Shown: positions 47,513 through 64,000 of the stretch, one piece after another
Layout of the letters: every line of letters starts with the position of its first letter
Numbering within the stretch: the first letter of the stretch is position 1
IMG/VR virus record: IMGVR_UViG_3300025405_000011
Span: 68,619 to 132,618 of that record
DNA length: 64,000 nucleotides
Source: a virus
Strand: one strand, 5' to 3'
The notes under the pieces: generated by a model
Seen by the model: the letters and a program-made list of their open reading frames with translations, nothing else
Database searches by the model: none
Told to the model about the DNA's origin: nothing
Made by a program: the position numbers and the translations under genes

Positions 47513-48103
47513 TTACATATTTTGATTAAGTGTAGATTCAGAACCATTTTGATTACTGAGTCCTTGGATACCATTTGCATCTACGCCTATACCGGCTCCA
47601 CCGGCTCCACCACCACCAGGACCAAACTGTCCTATACCTGGATTAGATACTGTAGAGGGTCTAGGGGGTTGATGGGCATCAAGACCGGGGTCAGTTTGTG
47701 CAGCCATATTGGCTGCGGGTGCAACTGATTCAAAATTGGTATTACTAGTGTCAAGAGGCATAGCGGTAGAACCACCACCAAACTGTCCTGCTTGTCGAGC
47801 TAAAGAGGCAACATGGCTTTTCTTTTGTTTCATGTAGGCCGATTGCTGAGCTTTTTGCATTGCCTTTTTCTTTTGTTCATCATTGCCCTGAGTATAGCCA
47901 TGGCATACTGCTTTATCTCCGGGTCCCTTGTAGCCTGGAAAACCATCAGCAGTCTGACATTCAGTAACACCAACACCAGTAGCAAATTTAAAGTCTAGAG
48001 TCACTGAGGATAGAACCGCTTTACAGCCTATGCACCAAGCGTCTTCTCCAATACTACTGACTCTAACTATTACTTGTCCGTCACAAAGTGGGCAGTTATT
48101 CAT
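47513..48103 (-). CDS. Hypothetical protein with N-terminal Zn ribbon
   Basis: CPLC..CIGC, then C...GFPGYKGP...CH.Y. Confidence 0.6.
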   Translation of the reverse strand: MNNCPLCDGQVIVRVSSIGEDAWCIGCKAVLSSVTLDFKFATGVGVTECQTADGFPGYKGPGDKAVCHGYTQGNDEQKKKAMQKAQQSAYMKQKKSHVASLARQAGQFGGGSTAMPLDTSNTNFESVAPAANMAAQTDPGLDAHQPPRPSTVSNPGIGQFGPGGGGAGGAGIGVDANGIQGLSNQNGSESTLNQNM

Positions 48104-48960
48104 TAGTTCTCCAAAAACTTTAAGACTACATCAATAGGGAGACCCTTACCGGCAGTTGCACGGTTAGTGCCATCAGTTAGTTCATTAGGGCCACGATCTG
48201 CATCTGTTTGCATTATAGGCTTTCTAGGGATATTATTACTATTGGGCTTAATATCAAAAAGCTTTTGTTCAGCACTAACTTGAGCTGGTTGGTGGTAATA
48301 CTTGGCCTGGTCATATCCATGGAAATAGTCATCACTCAATAGAGCTAGATCTTCATCTAGTGTCTTACCGTCAATTCCATCCATATAACCCTTGTAGTAG
48401 AGTTCACTGTCACTAGAGGTTTTTTGAAATAGATCTATATAGTCACTGGTACTGGCCAATACAGTATCTGGCTTTTTAGGGGCTTCTTTGATAATGTCTT
48501 CTTGGTTCACTTCGGGTTCCTCTGCTAGGTCTCTGGCCACTAGTGTAAAGTGGTCGATGTTCTTTTTAGGTATGTATTGTCCATCTTCTTCAGTATAGTC
48601 TGTAAAACCTTCGGCATCCGGACAGTCCGGAAAACCACAATGGGCTGTGTGTATATGTCTACTGGCCGTTTCTATCATTGTAGATAGACTGCCAATGTTA
48701 GGACTACTTAGTCCATCATTTCTTGTCTTTTTAGGTTCTCCTATAAGATCAATAGTGTCTACTCCAGTAGGTGCTGTAACTTCTGTAGCATTTTCATCTT
48801 GGTTAAAACGATCTGCAACTACTAGTGAACCAGTAATTACTGTACCCGGTAACCTAAAACCTTCTTCGTCTTCTATCGCTTGACCGTCTTCTTTTGAAAG
48901 AGTGTCATTATTAGTAGTAGGCATATTAGCCTGTCTATAACGCTCTTCAAATTTATTCAT
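48103..48960 (-). CDS. Hypothetical acidic head-region protein
   Basis: 285 aa, starts MNKFEERYRQA. Confidence 0.65.
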   Translation of the reverse strand: MNKFEERYRQANMPTTNNDTLSKEDGQAIEDEEGFRLPGTVITGSLVVADRFNQDENATEVTAPTGVDTIDLIGEPKKTRNDGLSSPNIGSLSTMIETASRHIHTAHCGFPDCPDAEGFTDYTEEDGQYIPKKNIDHFTLVARDLAEEPEVNQEDIIKEAPKKPDTVLASTSDYIDLFQKTSSDSELYYKGYMDGIDGKTLDEDLALLSDDYFHGYDQAKYYHQPAQVSAEQKLFDIKPNSNNIPRKPIMQTDADRGPNELTDGTNRATAGKGLPIDVVLKFLEN

Positions 48961-53574: not shown

Positions 53575-54037
53575 ACTGTCTCCGTTCTTGTTGTTCCGGT
53601 GCTGCATTAAAAAGGGGCCCCGCGCGTAGTTTCGGCATTTTTATTTTGCTTAGCTCGAGTCTTCCCCGAAAATCGGGAAAACAGACGTGACCATGTACGG
53701 GGTCTGTAGGCCGCCTACTGCCGGCGGCGTGCGCTGTAAATACACACGTACAAGTCCCGTACATACTCGTGTAGTCTAGGGCCGAGAGTACATTAGAGAC
53801 ACCCCACGCAGGATTCCGAGATCCCGCTCGCACGTTTTTTTGAGACCCCGTGTCGTCCCTCTCGTGCCCACTGTATAGGTACTACAAGTACCCGCCGCCC
53901 ACATGAGACATGTAGAACCCGTTGTCCACGGAATTGGTGCTCCCGCTCGTGGTTTTAGAAAGCTTACATTGGCAGATACAACTGTCGATTGGAGAGGTTA
54001 TGAACTTCTCTCAGACATCCCATGAAAGGGGATAACA
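53575..54037. other. Divergent GC-rich non-coding region (strand switch)
   Basis: No credible ORF; genes diverge on both sides; CpG-rich compared with the flanks. Confidence 0.6.
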
Positions 54038-54412
54038 ATGAAGCGAGACATCAATACATCAGTGCAGTTGCGTGCTGGATCTTGTGGTATGGAGGTAGCA
54101 GAGCAACTAACTAAGGTTGATGCAGTACCATGTGTGGGCCTTGGTGCCTACTGGCTGGACTCCAGGACTCAGTTCCAGGACCACGAGGTAGTCATTAGGG
54201 ACATTGTAAGGTCACCCAAAGGCAAAGTCAACAACTATCTGTTGAGTTTCCGTGCAGTTGACCCCTACACCGCACAACCCGTTGGTGGCTGGATTGAGGC
54301 CAAGAGCAAGTACACTTGGAACCAACTCAACGGTCACTTTTACACCATGGCCTCGTTTGTGGCCTTGGTTGAACGCATCAATGAACGGACAGTTGAAAAC
54401 TTGATAAAGTGA
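54038..54412 (+). CDS. Hypothetical early protein
   Basis: RBS AAAGGGG, 124 aa. Confidence 0.7.
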   Translation: MKRDINTSVQLRAGSCGMEVAEQLTKVDAVPCVGLGAYWLDSRTQFQDHEVVIRDIVRSPKGKVNNYLLSFRAVDPYTAQPVGGWIEAKSKYTWNQLNGHFYTMASFVALVERINERTVENLIK

Positions 54413-54431
54413 TCAACTAGGCAATTGGTCG

Positions 54432-54461
54432 GGGTGGTGGTTGTTCGCGCAACCATCATCC
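54432..54461 (+). repeat. 12-bp intergenic hairpin, copy 1
   Basis: GGGTGGTGGTTG-TTCGCG-CAACCATCATCC, then ACTATG. Confidence 0.75.
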
Positions 54462-54534
54462 ACTATGTTCTGGTACAAAGCCAGGCAGAAGGTAGCCCAT
54501 GCCTCCCATGGGCACAACAACAAGGGAGATAACC

Positions 54535-55086
54535 GTGTCAATTGCTATTGATGGCGTTATTTACAAGGCAGCTGGAAGCCAGACGATTGCTCGTCAGGCC
54601 AACCAGAAGGGCATCAACTTGACCGCTGAGTTGGAGACAGCCACAGTCAGTAACCTGGTAACAGGTGAACTGTACTATTGGTTTGACTACAGCACACAGC
54701 GTGAGTTGAAGGCGCTTCAGTCAGACGAGACATACACTGATGGTGGTGTCTCTGTCCCTGAAGTATTCCAGTTGGCAGGCCAGCCGGCTGCACGCAAGAA
54801 GAGCATCATTGTGCCTCTTAACTTTGCACGTGTCAATGTTGCAGATGGATCACTAACATGGTTCACCAATGACGATGGCACACTCAAGGTGTACGAGCGC
54901 ACAGTGAAGCTCATTGCTGACCGTGCACGTGATTACTTCCGGAGCATTGCTGTTCTGCAGCGTGTGCTTGACACGGAAGTGGTGGACTCTGACAGTGGTT
55001 TGTCAGGTACATATGTCATGTTCGACACTGCCATGGGTACAGTGGGATCAATCACTGACGCTGAAGCAGAAGTCAGCACAAAGTAG
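54535..55086 (+). CDS. Hypothetical early protein
   Basis: GTG start at 54535 after AACAAGGGAG, 183 aa. Confidence 0.75.
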   Translation: MSIAIDGVIYKAAGSQTIARQANQKGINLTAELETATVSNLVTGELYYWFDYSTQRELKALQSDETYTDGGVSVPEVFQLAGQPAARKKSIIVPLNFARVNVADGSLTWFTNDDGTLKVYERTVKLIADRARDYFRSIAVLQRVLDTEVVDSDSGLSGTYVMFDTAMGTVGSITDAEAEVSTK

Positions 55087-55092
55087 TACAAA

Positions 55093-55123
55093 GCCATGGG
55101 ACGTTGTCATGACGTCTCATGGC
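55093..55123 (+). repeat. 12-bp intergenic hairpin, copy 2
   Basis: GCCATGGGACGT-TGTCATG-ACGTCTCATGGC, then CCTG. Confidence 0.7.
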
Positions 55124-55451
55124 CCTGGGACAGTGTGTGTGTTGCGGTGTGTTCGACACGCGGGCACATGTGTCATATTGTATGGAGACAATGGTAAGCA
55201 TTGCACTATACAAGCGTACATGTATTCATATGGACACTGTACAAACAGCAACCGTACACTGTACAGACAACAACCGTACAGACACACGTGTATCCATGGT
55301 ACAATATTCCAATGTGGCCATGTGTATGCGACACCATGATCAGTGGGTTCACTTCACCCTTTCGTGAGCTCATTCATCCGTTTCGCATACACATGAGCAT
55401 GCTGGGAAGCATCTGTTTGCAGTACAATCAAACAATAACAAGGGAGCAAAT

Positions 55452-55835
55452 ATGATACAAACATTGGTCAAGAGCCATTGTCAACATTGGACATGTGGTG
55501 GGCTAGAAGATGGGAATCCATTCCATTCACTCACTGCAGAACGTCATGTACATTTGTATCTCAATGCTGAGGTAGATGCCATGTTTGGTCTCTACACAGT
55601 GGAGAGTGGTACATTTGGCAATGAGTCTCAACCATGGAACATAAGCAATGGGATATTTGTGCCCTCCATAGTTCAGGCCCAGAACTTGTTCTTTTCAGCG
55701 GTCAAGATGTTGAGTGACAGCCGCAAGAGCAGTGTCAATGTCCATAACTTGGAGTGGTGCAAGACCCAAGAATATTTACAGTTGCTGAATGCAACCATTG
55801 ATTTACAGATGGCCATTCAAGCGTACAGACTGTAG
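55452..55835 (+). CDS. Hypothetical early protein
   Basis: AACAAGGGAG RBS, 127 aa. Confidence 0.7.
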   Translation: MIQTLVKSHCQHWTCGGLEDGNPFHSLTAERHVHLYLNAEVDAMFGLYTVESGTFGNESQPWNISNGIFVPSIVQAQNLFFSAVKMLSDSRKSSVNVHNLEWCKTQEYLQLLNATIDLQMAIQAYRL

Positions 55836-55841
55836 GTCAAT

Positions 55842-56012
55842 ATGTTTACATGGATCAATAAAAAGATAACATTGCGCCGCATTAGTATGGTGGATGAAAT
55901 CGAAGAACAAATCATTCTCAACTTGGGACGCAATGTTAAGATTGCTGAGCTCAAGCGTATAAATGATGCCTTTGAGCTGATCAGACAGGAACTATTGTTC
56001 TCGATCAGTTGA
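55842..56012 (+). CDS. Small hypothetical protein (56 aa)
   Basis: MFTWINKKITLRR...; follows the previous stop by 6 nt. Confidence 0.5.
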   Translation: MFTWINKKITLRRISMVDEIEEQIILNLGRNVKIAELKRINDAFELIRQELLFSIS

Positions 56013-56133
56013 AAGATGCAACCATTGAAGGTTGCATGGGATACATATGTAATTGATCTAATCAATGTCCCCCCAGGACACATATGTATCCCATGGGATC
56101 TTCAAAAATCCCAAACAAACAAGAAGGAGCACC

Positions 56134-56667
56134 ATGGATGCACTGCGAAAAATGTGTATTTGTGCTCTATTGACAATTGGTATACTAGTTCCATCTGTTG
56201 CGGGAGCAACTGACAAATGGAAAGTTCAAAATGGACATGTATATCAAGTTCAGACAGTGACTAAGTCCAACTTACACTGGTATAGTAACATTATGCCAAC
56301 AGTGGTTAAGAATGAATCACATGCTCTGATGCAATGGAACACAACTAGCACAGATGTAACAGCCACGTGGCCTGATGCAACTGACCCTACAAGAAAGTTA
56401 CCAATAAAAGCACAAGTAACATTTGCTTGTATTAGGTATCATGAAAGTAGAAATCATCTGACCAGTGTTGAGATACACTCTTATGCCGGTGGATGGTATC
56501 AGTTTATTCCATATATATGGAATTTTGCAAGAGGACACATACCTGGGCTACCAGCAAAACCCCAAATGGCTACAGCACATCAACAATCTGCTGTGGCTGT
56601 CTGGTATTACCAACGCAATCATGGTTTTTACCCAGAATGGGGTGGAGACATGAAAGTTTGTGGCTAA
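56134..56667 (+). CDS. Secreted Rpf-like lytic transglycosylase
   Basis: Signal peptide MDALRKMCICALLTIGILVPSVAGA; CIRYHES...GGWYQF...W...A....Q..VA...W motif; RBS AAGGAG. Confidence 0.7.
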   Translation: MDALRKMCICALLTIGILVPSVAGATDKWKVQNGHVYQVQTVTKSNLHWYSNIMPTVVKNESHALMQWNTTSTDVTATWPDATDPTRKLPIKAQVTFACIRYHESRNHLTSVEIHSYAGGWYQFIPYIWNFARGHIPGLPAKPQMATAHQQSAVAVWYYQRNHGFYPEWGGDMKVCG

Positions 56668-56670
56668 TGG

Positions 56671-56700
56671 AGGTGGTATGGAGTCAAATCCATACCATCT
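56671..56700 (+). repeat. 12-bp intergenic hairpin, copy 3
   Basis: AGGTGGTATGGA-GTCAAA-TCCATACCATCT, then ACTATG. Confidence 0.8.
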
Positions 56701-56734
56701 ACTATGCAGAAATGCATAATAACAAGGAGAATGT

Positions 56735-57241
56735 ATGAGTGACATGAATACACTAACCTGGTTTAGTGAGAGATGGTATGGTGAACCCAAATACAGATCT
56801 ACAAGGTATACAAATGCCAAAGTGGATCTTGGTTTTACCATACAAGAAGATGTCAAGGGTGATGTCTTTTTACAAATTAGATCAGTGAGGACAGGTAAAA
56901 AGAATGCTGACTGGGAAGTTGGTATTTTTAAATGTCTCAATGAAACTATGTCTTCTGCTAAAAAAGCCATTAAAAAAGCATGGGTGACTATGCAGAATTC
57001 TAGTGAAGATGAGATGAAATCATTCAATACCTTTTGGGATACATTGGTATCATATGGGTGGCTTCCAGCAATGGAGATGCCTTGCCATCATGGTATGATG
57101 TCAGTTTGTTTTTGTGGTAGAAAGGCAATTGCTTCATGGGCCACTACTCGTAGTACAATTCATCATACTACATTGAAGACAGTGTTGGAAGTTGAAGAAG
57201 AAAACAAGCTTGAACCATTGATCTTTGCATGGCCTGAGTGA
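56735..57241 (+). CDS. Hypothetical early protein
   Basis: AACAAGGAG RBS, 168 aa. Confidence 0.7.
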   Translation: MSDMNTLTWFSERWYGEPKYRSTRYTNAKVDLGFTIQEDVKGDVFLQIRSVRTGKKNADWEVGIFKCLNETMSSAKKAIKKAWVTMQNSSEDEMKSFNTFWDTLVSYGWLPAMEMPCHHGMMSVCFCGRKAIASWATTRSTIHHTTLKTVLEVEEENKLEPLIFAWPE

Positions 57242-57245
57242 TAAA

Positions 57246-57275
57246 GGATGGTATGGAGTCAAATTCATACCATCC
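57246..57275 (+). repeat. 12-bp intergenic hairpin, copy 4
   Basis: GGATGGTATGGA-GTCAAA-TTCATACCATCC, then ACTATG. Confidence 0.8.
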
Positions 57276-57341
57276 ACTATGTACTTGACAGTACAGAAGG
57301 TGATCATTGCCTACCAATGATAAATAACAAGGGAGATTAGT

Positions 57342-57773
57342 GTGAAAACTAACACTTCAATCCAATCAGCAACCGAACAGATTGACAAGGCACGTAACAA
57401 GGCCAGTCGAGTGCTTGGGGTGAAAGTTTCACGAGTGCAATTTCTGCACTTGGTGGACATTATCACTGGAGAATCTGTAGAGCCAACTGTAAAATCAGTT
57501 GAATCTCAGAGTTCAGGCACTGTTCAGGTTAAGAAGACACGTGCCAAGTACCCAACATTTGCTCGCCAACAGTGGGATGCAATGTTTGACTGGAATGTGT
57601 TAATGAATGGAGCAGTACACCAAATTGACTTGACTACTATTCCCAACACCAACTGGAACCGTTTTGTCCAGAAGTCATGGGGTATGGGTAAAAAGAATGG
57701 TCTTAAGGCAATTACACGCAAGACAGGTGCCAAGTCAGGCACAATTCAATATGTATTGCGTGAAGCACAGTAG
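57342..57773 (+). CDS. Hypothetical basic early protein
   Basis: GTG start after AACAAGGGAG, 143 aa. Confidence 0.7.
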   Translation: MKTNTSIQSATEQIDKARNKASRVLGVKVSRVQFLHLVDIITGESVEPTVKSVESQSSGTVQVKKTRAKYPTFARQQWDAMFDWNVLMNGAVHQIDLTTIPNTNWNRFVQKSWGMGKKNGLKAITRKTGAKSGTIQYVLREAQ

Positions 57774-57791
57774 TAAGTTGTAGTGTAGTAA

Positions 57792-57821
57792 GGTCAGTGG
57801 GGAGTCATGTCCCCATTGACC
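57792..57821 (+). repeat. 12-bp intergenic hairpin, copy 5
   Basis: GGTCAGTGGGGA-GTCATG-TCCCCATTGACC, then ACGATG. Confidence 0.8.
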
Positions 57822-57877
57822 ACGATGGAATTAATCGATCCATTGAAGTACAGTAGATTAATAACAAGGGAGATAAC

Positions 57878-58615
57878 ATGAGCGAGACAAGCTACATGGG
57901 TATGCCAATTCCAAAGTGCTATCAAACACTCAATAAGGTGTTTGAGGCTGGACTAGACCGTGTGATTCTATATGGTCCTCCAGGCACAGGCAAGACATAT
58001 GCTGGACTCACTAGCCATATTGGTGAGAGTCAATCATTCCGTCTTGTTTGCACTGAAGACATGACTTCTGCCGAAGTATCAGGTGCTTTTATGCCTAGTG
58101 CTGATGGTGGGTTTCATTGGATGGATGGCTTAGCCACTAAAGCATGGCGAACTGGTGGACGTTTGGTAATTGATGAGATTGACAAGGCAAGTGGAGATGT
58201 TTTTGCTCTACTATTGTCTTTCACTGACTCGATTGCTAGTGCTTCCCTGGACTTGCCTACTGGTGAAAGGATTGTTCCTGCACCTGGCTTCAGTGTGATT
58301 ATGACATCTAACATTGAACACCCTGATGAGCTTCCAGTTGCTCTTCGTGACCGATTTCCAGTTGCACTTAAGATTGATTCTGCACATCCTGCAGCATTAG
58401 TCCAATTGCCTGAGGAATTGCGTATGGTTGCTGCTACTATTGTAGCAAGTAAGCCTGGACGACGTGCTAGTTTGCGTGCTTTTTATGCATTCCAGCAATT
58501 GCGTCAAGTCATGGATGTGATGGAGGCAGCAGAGCAAATCTTTGGACCTAACTTGGCTTCCAGCATTGTTGATGCTGTGAAGATAGGTACAATGTCTATT
58601 GAAGTAACTCTGTAG
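57878..58615 (+). CDS. MoxR/CbbQ-type AAA+ ATPase
   Basis: Walker A GPPGTGKT, W.DG, Walker B LVIDEID, TSN, ALRDRF. Confidence 0.88.
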   Translation: MSETSYMGMPIPKCYQTLNKVFEAGLDRVILYGPPGTGKTYAGLTSHIGESQSFRLVCTEDMTSAEVSGAFMPSADGGFHWMDGLATKAWRTGGRLVIDEIDKASGDVFALLLSFTDSIASASLDLPTGERIVPAPGFSVIMTSNIEHPDELPVALRDRFPVALKIDSAHPAALVQLPEELRMVAATIVASKPGRRASLRAFYAFQQLRQVMDVMEAAEQIFGPNLASSIVDAVKIGTMSIEVTL

Positions 58616-58617
58616 TC

Positions 58618-60174
58618 ATGAGTATGTCTACTAATGATCGGAAGGACTCACCACCTTTACCAGAGGTAGTGGTGTCCTTCCGACAGGACATATCAGACCC
58701 TATTGATTGGGATGTTCGCAATACTCCAAGTTCATCTATGGGTGTTAACACTGACTTACTCAAAGGTCAAATGACGGTTCCGTTTTTTGATGATGAAGTT
58801 AGTCGGTTTGTTCGTGCACGAGAATTAACCAAGGCACGAATTACACCTATTGATACTAGAATATATGATGCTGTATGTTCTAGTTCCAGAGATGTTAAGC
58901 CACATGTGTTGGCTGCTGCTGAGAACTTGAGAATATCTAGTGTGACTACTAAACTTGAATATGATAACATTGCTCTTGTTAAGGGCAGTGAAAAGAATTT
59001 GGGTATGCAGTTAGCACAAGCGGGTACACCTGAAGCATGGGAGTTTGCTTTAGTGACTGCAATTGAGTTGATAGGCTCCAAAGCCTTTGACTCTTTTGCA
59101 TCTGGTATTCGGAGTGTAAAACCCGAATGGTCCAAGTCACTAAGGGGTATGGTAAAACATGTGAAGCCTCATCTAGAAATTGCATTGACTGTACTTAGTG
59201 ATACTGCACCCAGTCTTTATGACTTTAAAGGTGAACATATTAACTATCCAAGAGGTTTTAATACATCTATGAGATTAGCACAGATATTAGATCATTGGAG
59301 TGGTTATGGGCCAATGGTTCCAGATGATGTTGCTGAAGTAGTTCGTGAAGAAATGTTTGAAAAGGCCATGAGTTCTGATGGTGATTCTGATGATGATGGT
59401 GATGATGATGGTGATGATGCCCAAGGTGAATCTGCCTCAGGCAAAACCAAGCCTTTTGGTGAAGGTACACCTGACTACAAACTATCTGTTAAGAATGTAC
59501 CTGATGACTTTGAGTTTGATACTGGTGCTGCAGGACAATTTGCTGATTTACGTATTGATGATACTATGCCCTTGATCCAAGAGGTCAGTGGCTATCTACA
59601 TCGACGTAAGTCAGCAATGACTACTGGGCGTAGAGTATTGTACCCAAGCCGTTTGCTTACTGACCCTCAAAAGAGAATTTTTGGTAGCAAAGTGAGAGTG
59701 AAAGGTGGTATTGTAGTTGTTGATATCTCTGGATCTATGAGCTTGACTAATGAAAATATTGAGGACATTTTGACATCAGCACCTGCTGCTGTTATCTTGG
59801 CCTATTCTCAGAGAGAGTTAGATCAACCCAATGCTTGGATTTTGGCGTCTCGTGGACGTCGTGTAGATCCCAAGCATATTGGAGATATTGGTAGAGCAGG
59901 CAATGGTGTTGACGGACCTGCCTTAACATGGGCTATTCGCAAGCGTAAGCATGGTGAACCCATCATCTGGATTAGTGACGGAATGGTTACTAGTTCAAGT
60001 GATGGTTGGTCTGACGAGTTGTTCCTTGATTGTGTTAAGTTAGTCAAGAAGCACAAGATCATCTGCTATGCAGATACACCTACTGCAGTTAAGGCATTCA
60101 AGCGTGGTGTTCATAGGAGCAATCCTCCTCACATCATTCGTGAAGCTTTAATTACAGGCAAGAGTCCACGCTAG
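58618..60174 (+). CDS. VWA (MIDAS) domain protein, partner of the AAA ATPase
   Basis: VVVDISGSM and WISDG motifs; acidic DGDDD linker. Confidence 0.8.
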   Translation: MSMSTNDRKDSPPLPEVVVSFRQDISDPIDWDVRNTPSSSMGVNTDLLKGQMTVPFFDDEVSRFVRARELTKARITPIDTRIYDAVCSSSRDVKPHVLAAAENLRISSVTTKLEYDNIALVKGSEKNLGMQLAQAGTPEAWEFALVTAIELIGSKAFDSFASGIRSVKPEWSKSLRGMVKHVKPHLEIALTVLSDTAPSLYDFKGEHINYPRGFNTSMRLAQILDHWSGYGPMVPDDVAEVVREEMFEKAMSSDGDSDDDGDDDGDDAQGESASGKTKPFGEGTPDYKLSVKNVPDDFEFDTGAAGQFADLRIDDTMPLIQEVSGYLHRRKSAMTTGRRVLYPSRLLTDPQKRIFGSKVRVKGGIVVVDISGSMSLTNENIEDILTSAPAAVILAYSQRELDQPNAWILASRGRRVDPKHIGDIGRAGNGVDGPALTWAIRKRKHGEPIIWISDGMVTSSSDGWSDELFLDCVKLVKKHKIICYADTPTAVKAFKRGVHRSNPPHIIREALITGKSPR

Positions 60175-60180
60175 ACTCAA

Positions 60181-60210
60181 CCCCAGGTTGCCGTCATTGG
60201 TGACCTGGGG
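60181..60210 (+). repeat. 12-bp intergenic hairpin, copy 6
   Basis: CCCCAGGTTGCC-GTCATT-GGTGACCTGGGG, then ACTATG. Confidence 0.8.
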
Positions 60211-60524
60211 ACTATGTAGTTAATACATAACCCAAGTTGCTATGGGTTGTAACCACTTGTATATGAGTGCTCAAACATATACCCAATAGCCAGTATGAGG
60301 ACAACAATCTGGCCTACCATGGATAACTGTAGTAAACGAATCCACTATGTCCATGATGGTAAGGCACACTAAGAACCCATCAAAACTCATCATATGGGGA
60401 AGCATATGGGAGAAATTTCCAATCTCTGAGTGGAACTACCTGTTAGTGTAAGTTGTAGGTCAACTATCTATCTGTGGGTGTATTGACTCGTAACCCTCCA
60501 TCCTGAGTTGATGATAACTACTCA

Positions 60525-60554
60525 TCCCATAATGAGGTCAAACTTATTATGGGA
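60525..60554 (+). repeat. 12-bp hairpin, copy 7
   Basis: TCCCATAATGAG-GTCAAA-CTTATTATGGGA, then CCTATG. Confidence 0.8.
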
Positions 60555-60773
60555 CCTATGTGGCTAATAAGCCCACATACCCATGTCATGAGGGTAACAT
60601 GGCTATCTTGTAAGTGGGTGTATAGGAACTTTCACAGGATAATGGTCACTGTTAGCCTAACCCATTCAAGAGACAACTTGTAAAACAATCCAGTGTATTG
60701 GGAAAGCATACACAAACTAAGTCCTGGGTATGACTGAAACTACCCACTTAAACAACAATACAAGGGAGGGCAT

Positions 60774-61079
60774 ATGCCTGAATTTGACTTTAAACTAGAT
60801 GATGAAACCAAAATCAGAGCTGAGTTTGGTGACTTTATCATGTCTATACATGAATGGGCTAGTCATACTGCAGAAGTAACTGTAGGATTTCTTGCACTTT
60901 CAGAAGGATGGGAAGAGTTTCCAGGTGATGATGGAGATCGTAAGACATTTATCAAGTTTGGAACTCATGCTTTAATGCAGCAAATGAATGAATTAGTGGA
61001 TATTTTCCAGAAAGCTCACACTGCACTCTTTGGGGAACCATTAGAGCACAAGTGTGATGATCCAGATCACGATCACTAA
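60774..61079 (+). CDS. Hypothetical early protein
   Basis: AAGGGAGG RBS; His/Cys/Asp tail (HKCDDPDHDH). Confidence 0.7.
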   Translation: MPEFDFKLDDETKIRAEFGDFIMSIHEWASHTAEVTVGFLALSEGWEEFPGDDGDRKTFIKFGTHALMQQMNELVDIFQKAHTALFGEPLEHKCDDPDHDH

Positions 61080-61083
61080 TCAA

Positions 61084-61114
61084 ACCTCAGGTGGGTTCAT
61101 TGCCTGCCTGGGGT
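61084..61114 (+). repeat. 12-bp intergenic hairpin, copy 8
   Basis: ACCTCAGGTGGG-TTCATTG-CCTGCCTGGGGT, then GCTC and a TCCC-GAAA-GGGA hairpin. Confidence 0.75.
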
Positions 61115-61153
61115 GCTCCCGAAAGGGAAATTAAAACAAACAAGGGAGTAAAT

Positions 61154-61501
61154 ATGAAAGACAAGTTACCTGACCTACGTCAACTGTCTACTTATGAAGA
61201 AGCATTAGATCACATCTTCAAGTGCCATGGTGAAGAGGGCAAGAAAATTGCAACTGATGAAAATCAAGCACCATTTATGTGGCATGAGATAGTTGGACAT
61301 GGTCCTGATAATGACTCAGATCATGATCACTATGGAAATGCTATGGGTAATATATCAGAAATGATGGAACTGGTGAACAAAATTATTGAAGACCCAGAAT
61401 TCCGTGCAAAATTTGAAGCCCAATTGAGTAGTGAAGAGGCACTTGAGGCCAAGAAACGTATTGATGAAAAGACACGATCTTTGCTTGAAGGTGACAAATG
61501 A
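61154..61501 (+). CDS. Hypothetical His-rich early protein
   Basis: Start MKDKLP at 61154 after AACAAGGGAG. Confidence 0.7.
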   Translation: MKDKLPDLRQLSTYEEALDHIFKCHGEEGKKIATDENQAPFMWHEIVGHGPDNDSDHDHYGNAMGNISEMMELVNKIIEDPEFRAKFEAQLSSEEALEAKKRIDEKTRSLLEGDK

Positions 61502-61761
61502 TTATAGTCAAAGGTGTTCTATCTGAAAAACATTGGATAGATGTCTCATACTTTAATGATGAGTATTTGACTGTTAACTGCAAATGTAATGGTTGTGAAG
61601 TAAGTGAATCCTATCTTGTAGAACAAAGTCTATTTGACAAATGGGCTAAGGGTGCACTGCTTCAAGATGTCTTCCCATTACTAACTCCAGGGCAAAGAGA
61701 GATGTTAATCTCAGGTACCTGTGATGCATGTTGGGATAAAAAATGGGCTGACTTAGATTAG
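61498..61761 (+). CDS. Conserved-looking phage hypothetical protein with CxxC pairs
   Basis: W..GALLQDVFPLLT..QREMLISG.C..CWD; ATGA overlap. Confidence 0.7.
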   Translation: MIIVKGVLSEKHWIDVSYFNDEYLTVNCKCNGCEVSESYLVEQSLFDKWAKGALLQDVFPLLTPGQREMLISGTCDACWDKKWADLD

Positions 61762-61766
61762 TCCAA

Positions 61767-61797
61767 ACTCCAGTTGAATTCAAATTTCTTCTGGAGT
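61767..61797 (+). repeat. 12-bp intergenic hairpin, copy 9 (canonical T-loop)
   Basis: ACTCCAGTTGAA-TTCAAAT-TTCTTCTGGAGT (tandem U.U), then GCTC and a CCTCA-GAAA-TGAGG hairpin. Confidence 0.75.
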
Positions 61798-61849
61798 GCT
61801 CCTCAGAAATGAGGTATAATAAGTAATAACCAATAACAAGGGAGTAAGT

Positions 61850-62053
61850 ATGGATGAAGTAAAAGTAACAACTGAAAGTCTTAAAAAGTTACTTGATGAT
61901 GCCTATGCAATGTACATAAAAGCATCTGAGAGTTATCTTGAGACTTTGAAGTTAGCAAGTCAAAAAGCTGCTACTTTTGAACAAGTAAAAGTCATCTGGG
62001 AGCGAACTACAAAGCTATGCCAAGACTTTATTGACTTACAGGAAGGAGAGTAG
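61850..62053 (+). CDS. Small hypothetical protein
   Basis: AACAAGGGAG RBS, 67 aa. Confidence 0.65.
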   Translation: MDEVKVTTESLKKLLDDAYAMYIKASESYLETLKLASQKAATFEQVKVIWERTTKLCQDFIDLQEGE

Positions 62054-62208
62054 TGCCAACTATTGTTCAAGATGATGATAACCGCAGCCGTGAAGATTTG
62101 ATAGAAGAAATTCATAGCCTTAGATATGAAATGATTATGATGTCTGAGGAGAATAGTATTCTTTTTAACAAATTGAAGGCCATCCGTTCCATCCTTGAAA
62201 TAAGTTAA
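62053..62208 (+). CDS. Small hypothetical protein (51 aa)
   Basis: GTG overlapping the previous stop, AAGGAG upstream; MPTIVQDDDNRSRED... Confidence 0.55.
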   Translation: MPTIVQDDDNRSREDLIEEIHSLRYEMIMMSEENSILFNKLKAIRSILEIS

Positions 62209-62209
62209 G

Positions 62210-62395
62210 ATGGAGCAATTGGGAACTATCCTAAGTGACTACATGATGAACCTTAAGAACAAGGTTTTAAGGTTTGTTGACGGTGAACCACAAGTATGCC
62301 CGTCATGCGGTGGATATATAAGACAGGATGAAGAGATAACTGCCAACAGTAAGTATGAAAAGGCAGTTCATCTTCGTTGTGCCTATTGGAAGTAA
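62210..62395 (+). CDS. Small Zn-finger-like protein
   Basis: CPSC...H..C, 61 aa. Confidence 0.55.
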   Translation: MEQLGTILSDYMMNLKNKVLRFVDGEPQVCPSCGGYIRQDEEITANSKYEKAVHLRCAYWK

Positions 62396-62403
62396 TGTAG
62401 TAA

Positions 62404-62433
62404 ACCTCACATAGAGTCAAGTTTATGTGAGGT
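62404..62433 (+). repeat. 12-bp intergenic hairpin, copy 10
   Basis: ACCTCACATAGA-GTCAAG-TTTATGTGAGGT, then GCTC and a TCTC-GGAA-GAGA hairpin. Confidence 0.8.
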
Positions 62434-62466
62434 GCTCTCGGAAGAGATAAACAATTAAGGAGCAAT

Positions 62467-62829
62467 ATGAGTAAGCAAGATTATGGTACAGTGTTAGGTG
62501 CTGACATTCTCAAAAGTTTGGCCTATAAGGACATAACTGAAGTGAAGGTTGGTGACTTTGTTACCTTTATTGATGCTCGTCATCTTGGATTGCAGAAAGG
62601 CACAACTCGATACCACTATCGTGGAGAAGTAATTGAGATTAATGCCCTTAGTGCAACTCCAGTTAAGGCCAGACTACAAAAGTTTGACCCTGTTACTGGA
62701 GACAAGTTTGATGATAGTTTCACAGAAGAGTCATTTGCAGTCAATAGATGGGCTCCATATGAAACAGTTATTCGTGCATTCCGGACAACCCTTGCGGTTG
62801 CTGGAGCAATACACGAATCAGAGGAGTAA
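62467..62829 (+). CDS. Hypothetical protein (SH3/KOW-like beta pattern)
   Basis: VKVGDFVTF...RGEVIEI; AAGGAG RBS. Confidence 0.65.
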   Translation: MSKQDYGTVLGADILKSLAYKDITEVKVGDFVTFIDARHLGLQKGTTRYHYRGEVIEINALSATPVKARLQKFDPVTGDKFDDSFTEESFAVNRWAPYETVIRAFRTTLAVAGAIHESEE

Positions 62830-62836
62830 TCCTCAA

Positions 62837-62869
62837 TCCTGGTAATGGTTTGATGTTCTATTACCAGGA
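62837..62869 (+). repeat. 12-bp intergenic hairpin, copy 11 (deviant 9-nt loop)
   Basis: TCCTGGTAATGG-TTTGATGTT-CTATTACCAGGA, then ACTAG. Confidence 0.65.
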
Positions 62870-62937
62870 ACTAGCCTCCCTTGGTGAACTCCTGGGCAAG
62901 AGTGTAAACTACCCACTCAACAAGTAAGGAGAAAGTA

Positions 62938-63267
62938 ATGAATAAGACAGGATTAAACTTGGAAATTATTGGCAAAGATGGTAATGCTTTTAACATCTTG
63001 GCTATTGCTTCTAAAACTCTCAAACGAAATGGGATGTCATCTTTAGTTGATGAATTTATAACTGAAGCAACTAGTGGTGACTATGATCATTTGTTAATGA
63101 CTTGTATGGAATGGTTTAATGTAACTGGTGATGAAGAAATTGAAATAGATGACTTCGAAGTGGATCTAGATGCACAAGAACTATTATTATGTGAAGTATG
63201 TGGAGATTCTACAGACGGAACTGGTATTCTATGTGATGATTGTTTCGATAGTGAGATGAGTGAATAG
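62938..63267 (+). CDS. Conserved phage hypothetical protein plus C-terminal Zn finger
   Basis: GKDGNAFNIL...ATSGDYDHLL motif; CEVC..CDDC. Confidence 0.7.
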   Translation: MNKTGLNLEIIGKDGNAFNILAIASKTLKRNGMSSLVDEFITEATSGDYDHLLMTCMEWFNVTGDEEIEIDDFEVDLDAQELLLCEVCGDSTDGTGILCDDCFDSEMSE

Positions 63268-63281
63268 TAAGGGAGAATAGT

Positions 63282-63878
63282 ATGGCCAAGACAAAAAAGA
63301 TGATGCATCCAGAGTATCATGGTACATTTAATGGTTATAGTAACTATGGTTGTAGATGTGATCTTTGTAAACTTGCTGGTAGGGAATCTAATAAGATTCA
63401 AAAGGCCAAGAGAATAGCCAGACCCAAAGACGGAACTGAATGGTATCATGGTACAGTCAATGGTTATCGTAATTGGGGTTGTCGTTGTGAGCCTTGTCAT
63501 GAGGCATTTAAAATTGATCAACGAAAAGTTGCTGCTAGAAATAGAAAACGTCAAGGCTTTTTGACTCGTGAAGAAAAAAGACAAGTACAACTTGATATAC
63601 AAAATAAAGTTACACTAAGTGACTCCCATGGGACAGAATTGGGTATCCAAATGGGATGTAAGTGTAAGTTGTGTACTAACAAAAAAGCATCCATGAAAAG
63701 AATAGTAAGACTGAATACTCCCAAAACTGGACTTGAACCATGGCATGGTACACAAGTTGGTTATCAAGGTTGGGGTTGTCGTTGTGAAAGATGCTACAAA
63801 GCCAATAGCCACTATCGTAAGATACAATATGCGAATGGTGGTAATGGGGCTCATAAGTATAGACACAAAGACAAATAA
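63282..63878 (+). CDS. Basic protein with four HGT..GY..GC[RK]C..C repeats (putative Zn-binding DNA-binding protein)
   Basis: HGTFNGYSNYGCRCDLC, HGTVNGYRNWGCRCEPC, HGTELGIQMGCKCKLC, HGTQVGYQGWGCRCERC. Confidence 0.75.
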   Translation: MAKTKKMMHPEYHGTFNGYSNYGCRCDLCKLAGRESNKIQKAKRIARPKDGTEWYHGTVNGYRNWGCRCEPCHEAFKIDQRKVAARNRKRQGFLTREEKRQVQLDIQNKVTLSDSHGTELGIQMGCKCKLCTNKKASMKRIVRLNTPKTGLEPWHGTQVGYQGWGCRCERCYKANSHYRKIQYANGGNGAHKYRHKDK

Positions 63879-63908
63879 CTTCTTGTGGGCTCAATACCCA
63901 CTTGAAGT
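63878..63908 (+). repeat. 12-bp intergenic hairpin, copy 12
   Basis: ACTTCTTGTGGG-CTCAATA-CCCACTTGAAGT (tandem U.U), then GCTA and an ACTCT-GGGA-AGAGT hairpin. Confidence 0.75.
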
Positions 63909-63954
63909 GCTACTCTGGGAAGAGTTAAAATATACATAACAAGTAAGGAGAAAT

Positions 63955-64000
63955 ATGAAATATAGATTGGTTGACTATACTAGCTGTCGAGGTGACTTTA
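63955..64000 (+). CDS. Start of a gene running off the window
   Basis: AAGTAAGGAG RBS, then MKYRLVDYTSCRGDF. Confidence 0.55.
   Translation, partial: MKYRLVDYTSCRGDF

What the first reader, a model, noticed from the sequence alone, without database searches (positions are those of the whole stretch)
54462..62915. Covarying H-type pseudoknots and second hairpins between each 12-bp hairpin and the RBS
Seen: family A at 54490-54513 (AGGTA-GCCCA-TGCCT-CCCA-TGGGC) and 57298-57321 (AGGTG-ATCAT-TGCCT-ACCA-ATGAT) have identical spacing. Their loop/downstream pairing changes in a compensated way (GCCCA/TGGGC versus ATCAT/ATGAT). Family B at 60720-60746 (AGTC-CTGGGTAT-GACT-GAAAC-TACCCA) and 62888-62915 (ACTC-CTGGGCAA-GAGT-GTAAAC-TACCCA) shows a compensated stem 1. 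A third case lies at about 57825-57861 (ATGGA/TCCAT stem whose loop ATTAATC can pair with downstream GATTAAT). Other leaders carry GNRA-capped hairpins instead. Most end in an A/C-rich AACAAGGGAG-type RBS. Inference: these are interchangeable 5' stabilisers, for example blocks to the 5'-3' exonuclease RNase J after upstream cleavage, or translational control elements.
Basis: partly seen in the sequence, partly recalled or inferred. Interest (0 to 1): 0.7.

Follow-up and report, generated by a model that had tools for sequence, protein, structure and literature searches.

The report
Coremin-like RNA knots in phage leaders
Two of the proposed RNA knots are genuine copies of a tiny, uncatalogued pseudoknot shared by many unrelated phages, which looks like a plant-virus element that stops RNA-degrading enzymes; the other proposed knots are plain hairpins.

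Summary
The window is the end of a 132.6-kb freshwater phage contig, probably an actinophage. Its + strand block (54038-64000) has modular leaders: a 12-bp hairpin, a second small hairpin 1-4 nt later, sometimes a third element, then an AACAAGGGAG-type RBS.

Family B (60720-60746, 62888-62915) is a real H-type pseudoknot. A pattern scan found at least 120 copies in IMG/VR. Stem 1 covaries (95 and 92 of 98 Watson-Crick). In stem 2, all 11 changes of the three central G-C pairs are changed on both sides. It matches no Rfam 15 family. Its stem and spacer resemble the plant-virus coremin element (xrRNA-C/WCC). This scan has already reported the same knot on many other genomes.

Family A (54490, 57298) is two paralogous plain 7-bp hairpins; the knot reading is not supported and no homologues were found. 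The third knot (57825) is within chance. Five GNRA hairpins and the RBS are confirmed.

Function is untested. Best guess: RNA roadblocks that shield message ends from exonucleases. Contexts before tRNAs and leaderless promoters argue against pure translational control.

The parts
60720..60746 (+). Family B pseudoknot, copy 1. S1 AGUC/GACU (60720-23 with 60732-35); L1 C; S2 UGGGUA (60725-30) with UACCCA (60741-46); L2 U; L3 GAAAC. The SD begins 14 nt downstream.
   Evidence: (43.3 bits, though it was in the training set).
62888..62915 (+). Family B pseudoknot, copy 2. S1 ACUC/GAGU; loop C-UGGGCA-A; L3 GUAAAC; S2 3' strand UACCCA. One C.A mismatch in S2.
   Evidence: 36.5 bits; the only unpaired cell at pair 13-33.
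54495..54513 (+). Family A, copy 1: plain 7-bp hairpin GCCCAUG-CCUCC-CAUGGGC, preceded by conserved CAGAAGGUA (54486-94).
   Evidence: MFE; -10.5 kcal/mol; no homologues.
57303..57321 (+). Family A, copy 2: plain 7-bp hairpin AUCAUUG-CCUAC-CAAUGAU, preceded by CAGAAGGUG (57294-302).
   Evidence: -4.6 kcal/mol.
57825..57862 (+). Third case: hairpin AUGGA-AUUAAUCGA-UCCAU (MFE extends it to 7 bp from 57823), plus downstream GAUUAAU (57856-62) complementary to the loop. The knot is unproven.
   Evidence: (P = 0.0087 per leader).
54466..54487 (+). Second hairpin (H2) of the 54.4-kb leader (core CUGGU/GCCAG). It starts 4 nt after the 12-bp hairpin.
56703..56718 (+). H2 with GAAA tetraloop (UAUGCA-GAAA-UGCAUA), 2 nt after the 12-bp hairpin.
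   Evidence: z = -3.5; 0 of 200 shuffles fold as well.
57280..57295 (+). H2 UGUACU-UGAC-AGUACA, 4 nt after the 12-bp hairpin.
61117..61128 (+). H2 UCCC-GAAA-GGGA after GUGCU.
   Evidence: z = -2.5.
61801..61814 (+). H2 CCUCA-GAAA-UGAGG after GUGCU.
62436..62447 (+). H2 UCUC-GGAA-GAGA after GUGCU.
63912..63925 (+). H2 ACUCU-GGGA-AGAGU after GUGCU.
54432..54461 (+). 12-bp-class hairpin H1 (context), followed by ACUAUG.
56671..56700 (+). H1, loop GUCAAA, followed by ACUAUG.
57246..57275 (+). H1, loop GUCAAA, followed by ACUAUG.
57792..57821 (+). H1, loop GUCAUG, followed by ACGAUG.
60181..60210 (+). H1, followed by ACUAUG and hairpin AUGUA-GUUAA-UACAU.
60525..60554 (+). H1, loop GUCAAA, followed by CCUAUG.
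61084..61114 (+). H1, followed by GCUCC.
61767..61797 (+). Imperfect H1, loop UUCAAAU, followed by GCUCC.
62404..62433 (+). H1, loop GUCAAG, followed by GCUCU.
62837..62869 (+). H1, followed by 18 unpaired nt and then pseudoknot copy 2.
63879..63907 (+). Imperfect H1, followed by UGCU.

Best explanation
The stretch is the set of intercistronic leaders of a + strand operon of small, mostly ORFan genes in a freshwater phage, probably of Actinomycetota. Each leader is built from RNA structure modules.

Shown:
(1) A 12-bp hairpin follows each stop codon.
(2) A second small hairpin, often GNRA-capped, begins 1-4 nt after it in 10 of 11 leaders.
(3) Two leaders carry a 27-28-nt H-type pseudoknot. 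It belongs to a family spread over many unrelated phages and is built like the plant-virus coremin/xrRNA-WCC element.

Inferred:
- The polycistronic RNA is cut at or next to the 12-bp hairpin.
- That hairpin stays as the 3' cap of the upstream message.
- The next structure (second hairpin or knot) lies at or near the new 5' end.
- There it acts as a mechanical roadblock to 5'-end-dependent decay (RNase J exonuclease, RNase E entry), so each cistron gets its own stability.
- The knot's A-rich loop 3, lying along stem 1, would give the directional resistance known from coremin and luteovirus knots.

Family A and the third case are ordinary members of the second- or third-hairpin class, not knots.
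For: STRUCTURE OF THE KNOT
- Stem 1 is 95/98 and 92/98 Watson-Crick at pairs that were not in the search pattern.
- Stem 2: 11 of 11 changes of the central G-C pairs are compensated. Overall, 94.8% of cells pair against 80.0% in shuffles, and 28.6-47.3% when the 3' partners are slid by 1-3 columns.
- Loop 1 C is invariant in 113/113 copies. Two A's of loop 3 that were not in the pattern are at least 90% conserved.

RNA SENSE
The knot is co-oriented with the upstream gene in 73 cases against 6.

RESEMBLANCE TO COREMIN
- Stem 1 is GUC/GAC in 50/113 copies. The spacer holds TAAACT in 36/113 and AAAACT in 59/113.
- The published minimal coremin reads GUC-CGAA-GAC-GUUAAACUAC (PMC10520033 passages).
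- Coremin and its Watson-Crick variant stall Xrn1 and ribosomes (PMC10520033 and PMC10321173 passages).
- An xrRNA stops RNase J1 (PMC5760640 passages).

ARRANGEMENT IN THIS WINDOW
- In the 62.8-kb leader the order is stop, 12-bp hairpin, 18 unpaired nt, knot, 10 nt, SD.
- H2 starts 1-4 nt after H1 in 10 of 11 leaders. By contrast, 42 of 111 unrelated intergenic stretches have any 4-bp hairpin starting within 5 nt.

HOSTS
- Isolated phages with the knot infect Microbacterium, Corynebacterium, Rhodococcus, Moorella, Geobacillus, Nostoc and Synechococcus.
- None was found by blastn in 5,426 E. coli genomes.
- That these phyla have RNase J and E. coli lacks it is recalled knowledge.
Against: - No RNA ends, cleavage or stability were observed.
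- Across the family the tightest anchor is the upstream stop codon (4-8 nt in 47 of 114). Some copies lie upstream of promoters of leaderless genes, so they cannot cap those transcripts.
- Eleven copies have an opposite-strand gene downstream. This fits a gene-end (3') role at least as well.
- The hairpin hp2, which coremin needs to stall Xrn1, is not enriched after the knot (42/111 vs 42/111).
- The coremin loop rule YGAD/YGNNAD is not met.
- The host survey rests on three short blastn queries, and on 2 vs 0 real hits in 151 + 151 genomes. That is too few to count.
- The second window copy has a stem-2 mismatch.
- Nested folding z-scores of the leaders are modest (-1.2 to -3.5; two are near 0).
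Confidence: 0.35

Rival explanations
1. Gene-end cap. The knot (and in this phage the 12-bp hairpin) belongs to the upstream message. After cleavage just downstream (RNase P at a tRNA, or an endonuclease in the G-poor stretch), it seals the 3' end against 3'-5' exonucleases.
For: - The stop codon lies 4-8 nt upstream in 47 of 114 copies and within 20 nt in 65.
- tRNA 5' ends lie 2-6 nt downstream in several copies, including the third copy of this genome before tRNA-Ser.
- The six bases after the knot hold 2-10% G against 21% background. The 20 upstream bases show no such depletion.
- The knot lies upstream of leaderless promoters at variable spacing of 3-18 nt.
- In isolates, phage Count CDS 110 ends 4 nt before the knot.
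Against: - Both window copies are not at gene ends: one lies 545 nt and the other 58 nt after the stop. The 12-bp hairpin holds that place and an RBS lies 10-14 nt behind the knot.
- Ordinary hairpins suffice against 3' exonucleases, so a conserved knot with invariant loop bases seems over-built (inference).
- Coremin-type knots are known to act from the 5' side (PMC10520033 passages).
Confidence: 0.25
2. Ribosome-directed element. The knot stalls, insulates or parks ribosomes, either blocking post-termination sliding or readthrough from the upstream cistron, or serving as a standby or control site for the next RBS.
For: - The stop-to-knot spacing of 4-8 nt equals the spacer of frameshift and readthrough knots (recalled).
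- Coremin stalls scanning ribosomes and drives -1 frameshifting in vitro (PMC10520033 and PMC10321173 passages).
- The next ORF starts 11-40 nt after the knot in 58 of 114 copies.
Against: - Copies sit before tRNAs and before promoters.
- The window copies have no ORF ending nearby and no overlapping frame.
- Tandem stops in several frames precede many copies.
Confidence: 0.15
3. Transcription-level signals. The 12-bp hairpins are weak terminators or pause sites. The GUGCU + GNRA hairpins are nut-like (boxA-boxB-like) antitermination sites, and the knot is an RNA that acts on RNA polymerase.
For: - Four leaders read GUGCU(C/A) followed at once by a GNRA hairpin with four different stems.
- This recalls lambda boxA plus boxB (recalled, not tested).
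- The hairpins lie after every stop codon.
Against: - No U-tract follows the 12-bp hairpins or the knot; T is 30-48% downstream.
- tRNAs 2-6 nt behind knots need read-through.
- GUGCU + GNRA was found only in this phage among 200 loci. The loose scan found 31 matches against 54 in reversed controls.
- No N-like protein was sought.
Confidence: 0.1
4. Family A, the third case and some second hairpins have no specific role. They are local hairpins that arose by duplication of leader segments, or chance complementarity.
For: - There were no family A homologues in 31 pattern hits, nor in 200 loci, where 2 of 48 control matches also had 5/5 stems.
- The third-case complement has a family-wise chance near 0.08.
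- Strain variants in four metagenome runs do not touch these elements, so they give no test.
Against: - Four doubly compensated pairs separate the two family A copies while the flanks stay identical.
- H2 is regularly placed 1-4 nt after H1 in 10 of 11 leaders.
Confidence: 0.15

Closest known systems
Coremin motif (xrRNA-C) of beny-, cucumo- and other eukaryotic RNA viruses, and its Watson-Crick variant xrRNA-WCC (Dilweg et al. 2019 PMC6546385, abstract; 2023 PMC10520033 and PMC10321173, passages)
   Same: - A 3-4-bp first hairpin, most often GUC/GAC.
- An A-rich spacer ...UAAACUAC right behind it.
- A loop-spacer interaction that makes a small H-type knot; this is Watson-Crick in xrRNA-WCC.
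- A size of about 20-28 nt.
- Location in untranslated or intergenic RNA of viruses.
   Different: - The phage loop is the 8-nt C-UGGGUA-U, not YGAD/YGNNAD.
- Stem 2 has 5-6 Watson-Crick pairs instead of 0-3.
- No second hairpin (hp2) follows.
- The hosts are bacteria, which lack Xrn1.
- No stalling has been shown.
Luteovirus-type -1 frameshifting pseudoknots (BWYV, PLRV), as discussed in PMC10321173
   Same: Compact H-type knot with short loop 1, one junction base and an A-rich loop over stem 1. Many family members sit 4-8 nt after the codon in the A site.
   Different: There is no slippery heptamer and no overlapping frame. The window copies lie in non-coding leaders, and other copies sit before tRNAs.
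RNase III-processed hairpins between the early genes of phage T7, and 5' stabilisers of Bacillus phage SP82 and ermC-type leaders (recalled, not read here)
   Same: A structure after each early gene; processing leaves hairpins at message ends that set stability.
   Different: Here the hairpins are perfect 12-bp stems with T-loop-like loops. Cleavage, the enzyme involved and stability are all unknown.
preQ1-I riboswitch (RF00522) and Rfam GP20-b (RF03003)
   Same: Small H-type knot with an A-rich tail (preQ1-I); a phage-associated candidate RNA (GP20-b).
   Different: Neither model matches: nothing at E <= 10 in 53800-64000, and RF03003 has no match in the genome at E <= 10. The SD is not part of the knot.

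Membership tests
Coremin / xrRNA-C | First hairpin hp1 of 3-4 bp (GUC/GAC in BNYVV) | tested here: met
   Stem 1 has 3-4 covarying pairs. GTC/GAC occurs in 50 of 113 copies. The window copies read AGUC/GACU and ACUC/GAGU.
Coremin / xrRNA-C | Loop 1 follows YGAD (4 nt) or YGNNAD (6 nt) | tested here: not met
   The loop is C-UGGGUA-U (8 nt). The second base is U in 113/113 copies. An octaloop was tolerated in one construct (PMC10520033 passages).
Coremin / xrRNA-C | Conserved 10-nt spacer GUUAAACUAC | tested here: inconclusive
   Exact GTTAAACT(A/G)C occurs in 6 of 113 copies, TAAACT in 36 and AAAACT in 59. The CU(A/G)C part is paired here.
Coremin / xrRNA-C | Second hairpin hp2 directly after the spacer | tested here: not met
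   42 of 111 copies have a hairpin of at least 4 bp starting within 5 nt, the same as 42 of 111 at a control offset.
Coremin / xrRNA-C | Stalls a 5'-3' exoribonuclease | not testable with these tools
   No RNA run holds the stretch. This needs an RNase J or Xrn1 assay.
xrRNA-WCC | Antiparallel Watson-Crick stem 2 between loop 1 and the spacer | tested here: met
   Pairs 10-36, 11-35 and 12-34: 11 of 11 changes are on both sides. Pair 13-33: UG 70, UA 33, CG 9, other 1. Stem 2 is 5-6 bp here against 3 bp in xrRNA-WCC.
Luteovirus-type -1 frameshift signal | Slippery heptamer 5-9 nt upstream and an overlapping -1 frame | tested here: not met
   The window knots lie 545 and 58 nt after the previous stop, in ORF-free leaders. 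Elsewhere stop codons, often tandem, precede the knot.
Rfam families (all 4227, including preQ1-I RF00522, pistol RF02679, GP20-b RF03003) | Match to the covariance model | tested here: not met
   - Window at gathering score: 3 tRNAs only.
- 53800-64000 at E <= 10: four chance miRNA/snoRNA hits, none on a leader element.
- 15 knot-bearing loci at E <= 1: none at the knot.
- RF03003 in the genome at E <= 10: none.
Lambda-type nut site (for GUGCU + GNRA hairpins) | boxA consensus followed by a boxB hairpin bound by an N-type protein | not tested
   Only a resemblance was noted: UGCUC plus a GNRA hairpin in four leaders. The boxA consensus is recalled, and no N-like protein was sought.
   - Stem 1 shows only a one-sided A-to-G change.
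- L1 = L2 = 0 nt.
- The plain hairpin (-10.5/-4.6 kcal/mol) is at least as good as S1 + S2 (-10.0/-3.0) before any penalty.
- MFE picks the hairpin.

The most novel reading that the evidence does not exclude
The phage knot is a true prokaryotic exoribonuclease-resistant RNA. It would be an RNA-only roadblock to RNase J (and to ribosomes or helicases), with the same fold as plant-virus coremin. Phages of Gram-positive bacteria and cyanobacteria would use it, together with tRNA-like hairpins, as a punctuation code that cuts operon transcripts and gives each cistron or tRNA its own lifetime. That would make xrRNAs a cross-kingdom viral device and give bacteria-ready RNA stabiliser parts.
Probability: 0.3. 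Interest if true: 0.85.

Novelty: new variant of a known kind. Interest (0 to 1): 0.62.

Why it matters
Exonuclease-resistant RNAs are so far known only from eukaryotic viruses. Here a 28-nt knot with the coremin core is spread over phages of several bacterial phyla and is not in Rfam 15. It also did not turn up in four literature searches.

If it stops RNase J or seals message ends, it would explain how phages tune the stability of single cistrons within long transcripts. It would also help with the unsolved coremin fold, because the phage version has clear Watson-Crick pairs and more than a hundred natural variants. And it would supply a tiny stabiliser part for Gram-positive and cyanobacterial engineering.

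It can be tested directly, because isolated phages carry it: Microbacterium phage Count, Corynebacterium phages phi673/phi674, Rhodococcus phage Trina and Nostoc phage NMeng1.

For this window the result also corrects the picture: only two of the five proposed knots are knots.

Tried and rejected
- **Close relatives for covariation.** blastn of 54400-62300 against isolated phages found nothing. The nearest IMG/VR relatives share only the AAA ATPase (at most 60% identity) and the following gene. In one search, three of my 18 queries (genes starting at 54535, 56134 and 61154) were mis-framed by one base, so their 'no hit' is void.
- **Strain variants.** Four metagenome runs were laid on the stretch. 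40 differences were listed and 25 more not shown. None of those listed falls in a claimed element, so there is no test.
- **RNA evidence.** No RNA holder was listed.
- **Family A homologues.** Pattern AGAAGGTRNNNNNTGCCTNCCA gave 31 stretches, with stem complementarity of 0-3 of 5 in all; many lie in a conserved coding region. Looser scans of 200 loci found only the two window copies.
- **A wider family for CAGNAANAGG or GUGCU + GNRA.** Only L010/L012 share the first. The second is confined to this phage, and the loose scan was no richer than controls (31 vs 54).
- **Promoter reading of the knot.** Rejected, because stem 2 covaries and the spacing to TATAAT boxes varies from 3 to 18 nt.
- **Intrinsic terminator.** Rejected: there is no U-tract.
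- **Extra knot copies in the window.** The weak hits at 48087-48122 and 34474-34523 (- strand) encode CxxC peptides.
- **Host survey by genome samples.** 5 of 151 Actinomycetota and 5 of 151 Gammaproteobacteria genomes had hits at E <= 0.001. By eye, 2 and 0 of these are real knots, which is too few.
- **Genome contigs pattern scan.** 120 rows (limit reached). Only 30 have stem-1 pairs 2 and 3 Watson-Crick, so most rows are chance.
- **Literature.** A string search for the loop returned primers only. Two 2026 language-model preprints were read as passages and neither mentions this knot. GP20-b is not in the main text of PMC5737381. Its supplements, which may describe it, were closed.
- **Rows dropped.** Two of the 116 scan hits (L096 at 148, L187 at 3608) were dropped as likely false. 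Stem-1 pairs 2 and 3 were required by the scan, so their counts are biased. The unbiased counts are those.

Full report
**Setting**

The window is the last 64 kb of a 132,618-base IMG/VR virus record, estimated 83% complete. About 122 kb is coded on the - strand. From 54038 to the contig end, a block of 18 small genes runs on the + strand. Only an AAA_5 ATPase (57878-58615) has a Pfam match above cut-off among the 10 proteins scanned.

tblastn of that ATPase against isolated phages hit 22 records. Twenty-one are phages of Actinomycetota (Gordonia, Microbacterium, Brevibacterium and one 'Actinomycetia' phage), at 27-32% identity. Twenty-four freshwater or lake metagenome runs hold the stretch. 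A freshwater actinophage is therefore the likely source; this is an inference.

**Leader anatomy**

Every long gap in the block has the same build.
- A perfect or near-perfect hairpin of 12-13 bp begins 0-21 nt after the stop codon. There are eleven such hairpins, at 54432, 56671, 57246, 57792, 60181, 60525, 61084, 61767, 62404, 62837 and 63879. Their loops are mostly GUCAAA-like or UUCAAAU-like.
- Next comes ACUAUG, ACGAUG or CCUAUG, or else GCUC (read with the last stem bases as GUGCU).
- A second small hairpin begins 1-4 nt after the first in 10 of 11 leaders. The exception is 62837, where 18 unpaired bases precede the knot.
- Some leaders then have a third element.
- Last is an A/C-rich RBS.

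AACAAGGGAG occurs 6 times forward and 0 times reverse in the whole record, all in this block. None of the 12-bp-class hairpins occurs outside the block.

Nested folding of the ten post-hairpin segments gave z-scores from -3.5 to +0.06. Of 200 shuffles, those folding at least as well numbered 7, 0, 8, 28, 73, 3, 11, 8, 94 and 24. The two values near zero are the knot-bearing segments, which nested folding cannot capture.

**Family B is a real pseudoknot**

The two window copies share the plan [stem]-C-UGGGUA-U-[stem']-A-rich-ACUACCCA. I saw the same plan in loci of distant relatives. I then scanned IMG/VR with CCTGGGTATGN{6,11}ACTRCCC, which leaves stem 1 free.

*Stem 1.* In 98 unique copies:
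- Pair 2 is Watson-Crick in 95 (UA 59, AU 26, GC 6, CG 4).
- Pair 3 is Watson-Crick in 92 (GC 57, CG 18, AU 11, UA 6).
- Pair 4 is Watson-Crick in 62, plus 11 G.U.

*Stem 2.* To test stem 2 without assuming it, I scanned all loci held and the genome for copies with up to three mismatches to the conserved letters. I required only stem-1 pairs 2 and 3. This gave 116 unique hits, against 7 in reversed controls. The variant copies carry matched changes:
- UGAGUA with UACUCA.
- UUGG.. with ..CCAG.
- UAGG with CCUA.
- GGCC with GGCC.
- GGAC with GUCC.
- UGGGCA always with UGCCCA.

On the alignment of 113 copies (two likely false hits dropped), the three central G-C pairs change 11 times. All 11 are changed on both sides; none is one-sided or unpaired. 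Pair 13-33 reads UG 70, UA 33, CG 9, other 1. The outermost pair is formed in 79 of 113. Overall, 94.8% of cells pair, against 80.0% in 500 shuffles (0 of 500 reach the observed value) and 28.6-47.3% when the 3' partners are slid by 1-3 columns.

The closing C-G of stem 1 flips to G-C in two copies. The single unpaired cell at pair 13-33 is the window copy at 62888 (UGGGCA with UACCCA, a C.A mismatch). That copy is a slightly defective member.

The genome has a third copy on the - strand. It lies 14 nt after a stop codon and 2 nt before the first of three tRNAs. The covariance model built from the family finds only the two copies in the window. The next hits, at 11.6 bits or less, lie in CxxC-coding sequence.

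**Where the knot sits elsewhere**

- It is co-oriented with the upstream gene in 73 cases against 6. With the downstream gene the count is 63 against 11.
- The distance from the nearest upstream stop to stem 1 is 4-8 nt in 47 of 114 copies, and within 20 nt in 65. The stop codons are TAA 47, TAG 17 and TGA 1.
- Downstream comes one of three things: an SD and start codon (ORF start 11-40 nt away in 58 of 114); a tRNA 2-6 nt away; or a TGnTATAAT box followed after 6-7 nt by ATG, which indicates a leaderless gene. The knot-to-box spacing varies from 3 to 18 nt.
- The six bases after the knot hold 2-10% G against 21% further on. The 20 bases before it show no such depletion.
- No second hairpin is enriched behind it (42 of 111, against 42 of 111 at a control offset).

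Isolated phages carry the knot in annotated intergenic DNA, on the sense strand:
- Microbacterium phage Count, where CDS 110 ends 4 nt before it.
- Corynebacterium phages phi673 and phi674.
- Rhodococcus phage Trina.
- Moorella phage MTATph1.
- Deep-sea thermophilic phage D6E.
- Nostoc phage NMeng1, where a tRNA follows.
- Cyanophage S-RIM4.
- A microvirus.

One blastn query found nothing in 5,426 E. coli genomes. In bacterial genome contigs, 30 of 120 pattern rows have a paired stem 1, against about 6% expected by chance. Many of these lie in MAGs of diverse phyla. Samples of 151 Actinomycetota and 151 Gammaproteobacteria genomes gave 2 and 0 convincing copies, too few to compare.

**What the knot is like**

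No Rfam 15 family matches it.
- The window at gathering score gives three tRNAs only.
- Fifteen knot-bearing loci at E <= 1 give nothing at the knot.
- Region 53800-64000 at E <= 10 gives four chance miRNA/snoRNA hits.
- GP20-b (RF03003) has no match in the genome at E <= 10.

Earlier notes of this scan report the same gene-end or leader knot on many other genomes, and they gave me the coremin lead. I checked that lead in the papers.
- Coremin (xrRNA-C) is a 3-4-bp hairpin, GUC-CGAA-GAC in BNYVV.
- It has a conserved spacer, GUUAAACUAC, and a second hairpin.
- Its loop must read YGAD or YGNNAD, although an octaloop was tolerated.
- It stalls Xrn1 one base before the hairpin and stalls scanning ribosomes (PMC6546385 abstract; PMC10520033 passages).
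- It stimulates -1 frameshifting. A Watson-Crick variant, xrRNA-WCC, forms a 3-bp stem 2 between loop and spacer (PMC10321173 passages).

The phage knot shares the GUC/GAC stem (50 of 113) and the ...(U/A)AAACU(A/G)C spacer. It has a longer Watson-Crick stem 2. It fails the loop rule and lacks hp2. It works like, or at least looks like, xrRNA-WCC, but I do not file it as a member.

A flaviviral xrRNA blocks bacterial RNase J1 in vitro (PMC5760640 passages). An RNA-only block to the bacterial enzyme is therefore possible in principle.

**Family A**

The compensated segment, however, is part of a plain 7-bp hairpin with loop CCUCC or CCUAC. Four of its seven pairs are changed on both sides between the copies.
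- MFE and centroid folds choose this hairpin.
- The hairpin scores -10.5 and -4.6 kcal/mol.
- A scan of IMG/VR with the conserved letters gave 31 stretches, none with more than 3 of 5 complementary stem bases.
- Among 200 loci, only the two window copies fit, and 2 of 48 control matches also showed 5/5 pairing.

Family A is thus a pair of paralogous hairpins special to this phage. The knot is not supported.

**Third case**

The hairpin at 57825 is real. A perfect 7-nt loop-to-downstream complement exists (AUUAAUC with GAUUAAU; both contain the palindrome AUUAAU). Shuffling the downstream 34 nt gives a complement of at least 7 nt in 0.87% of 20,000 trials, or about 0.08 over roughly ten leaders. 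Loop 1 would be 0 nt. No relative is available, so the case is unproven.

**GNRA hairpins**

Five are confirmed: 56703-18 GAAA, 61117-28 GAAA, 61801-14 GAAA, 62436-47 GGAA and 63912-25 GGGA. Four follow GUGCU and have four different stems. I found this module in no other locus.

**How it most likely works**

*Shown:* the structures and their order.

*Inferred:* the operon RNA is processed at the 12-bp hairpins. Their 12-bp stems and T-loop-like loops recall tRNA minihelices, which is the reading of a sister note that I did not test. In relative L010, a tRNA-like element followed by CGAUGG stands in the same place.

Cutting at the 3' side of that hairpin would leave a 5'-monophosphate RNA whose first 1-4 bases are followed by the second hairpin. 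In one leader, 18 bases are followed by the knot. 5'-proximal structures protect against RNase J and RNase E; this is recalled knowledge from work on E. coli ompA and B. subtilis model mRNAs.

I give it 0.35.

The family-wide anchoring to stop codons, the tRNA and promoter contexts and the G-poor 3' flank favour a gene-end 3' cap (0.25). The two readings are not exclusive: a roadblock between cistrons can serve both neighbours.

Ribosome-directed roles (0.15), transcriptional roles (0.10) and no specific role for the non-B elements (0.15) remain open.

**Novelty and verdict**

In four literature searches and the passages I read, I found no description of a coremin-like knot in phages. Supplements were closed and may hold motif lists that I could not see.

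This scan has reported the same knot repeatedly on other DNA, so it is not new to the scan. As far as I could check, it is new to print and to Rfam.

For this finding:
- Interest is 0.62.

Noticed in passing
window 60175-60773: A 599-nt ORF-poor gap holds two 12-bp-class hairpins (60181, 60525), further hairpins (for example GUGUAU...AUACAC at 60693-60714) and the knot at its 3' end. Only a 44-aa ORF without an RBS (60549-60683) lies inside. It may encode small RNAs.
   Followed up: no
window 63282-63878: A 198-aa protein with four repeats of the motif HGT.NGY..(Y/W)GCRC..C. There is no Pfam match above cut-off.
   Followed up: partly
L221, L225, L242, L244, L252, L258, L286, L362, L363 (just upstream of the knot): In nine bacterial MAG or genome contigs of several phyla, the knot directly follows a short ORF ending ...HC(K/S/G)(E/D)G(C/H)xx-stop. 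Third-codon variation suggests it is coding. The gene was not identified.
   Followed up: partly
L135, L163, L173, L176, L186, L158, L170, L121, L182, L308 (downstream of the knot): The knot is followed by TGnTATAAT and, 6-7 nt later, ATG. These are probably leaderless genes, typical of Actinomycetota hosts.
   Followed up: no
L010:3085-3150 and L012:5079-5144: A tRNA-like element (T arm GGGGUUCAACUCCCC, paired ends), followed by CGAUGG, stands before the AAA ATPase gene of the closest relatives. The window has a 12-bp hairpin plus ACGAUG/ACUAUG in that position. In L013 a full tRNA is followed by GUGCUGG.
   Followed up: no
window 55087-55451: A 365-nt non-coding gap with a 14-bp hairpin (55093-55123), direct repeats of GUACA(G/A)ACA(A/G)CAACCGUACA type and a very stable fold (-136.6 kcal/mol).
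   Followed up: no
window 54501 and 62874: The anti-SD-like heptamer GCCTCCC occurs only twice on the + strand of the whole genome and never on the - strand. Both copies are in leaders: the family A loop and the spacer before knot copy 2.
   Followed up: no
genome 6497-6790, - strand (outside the window): The third knot copy lies 2 nt before a tRNA-Ser/Tyr/Met array. The genome has 7 tRNAs in all.
   Followed up: partly
many loci (L097, L120, L125, L138, L148, L162, L181) and window about 41700 (- strand): A P-loop kinase-like gene starting MIIQIIGLPG(S/A)GKT often follows the knot in AT-rich phage contigs. In this genome it follows tRNA-Asn instead.
   Followed up: no
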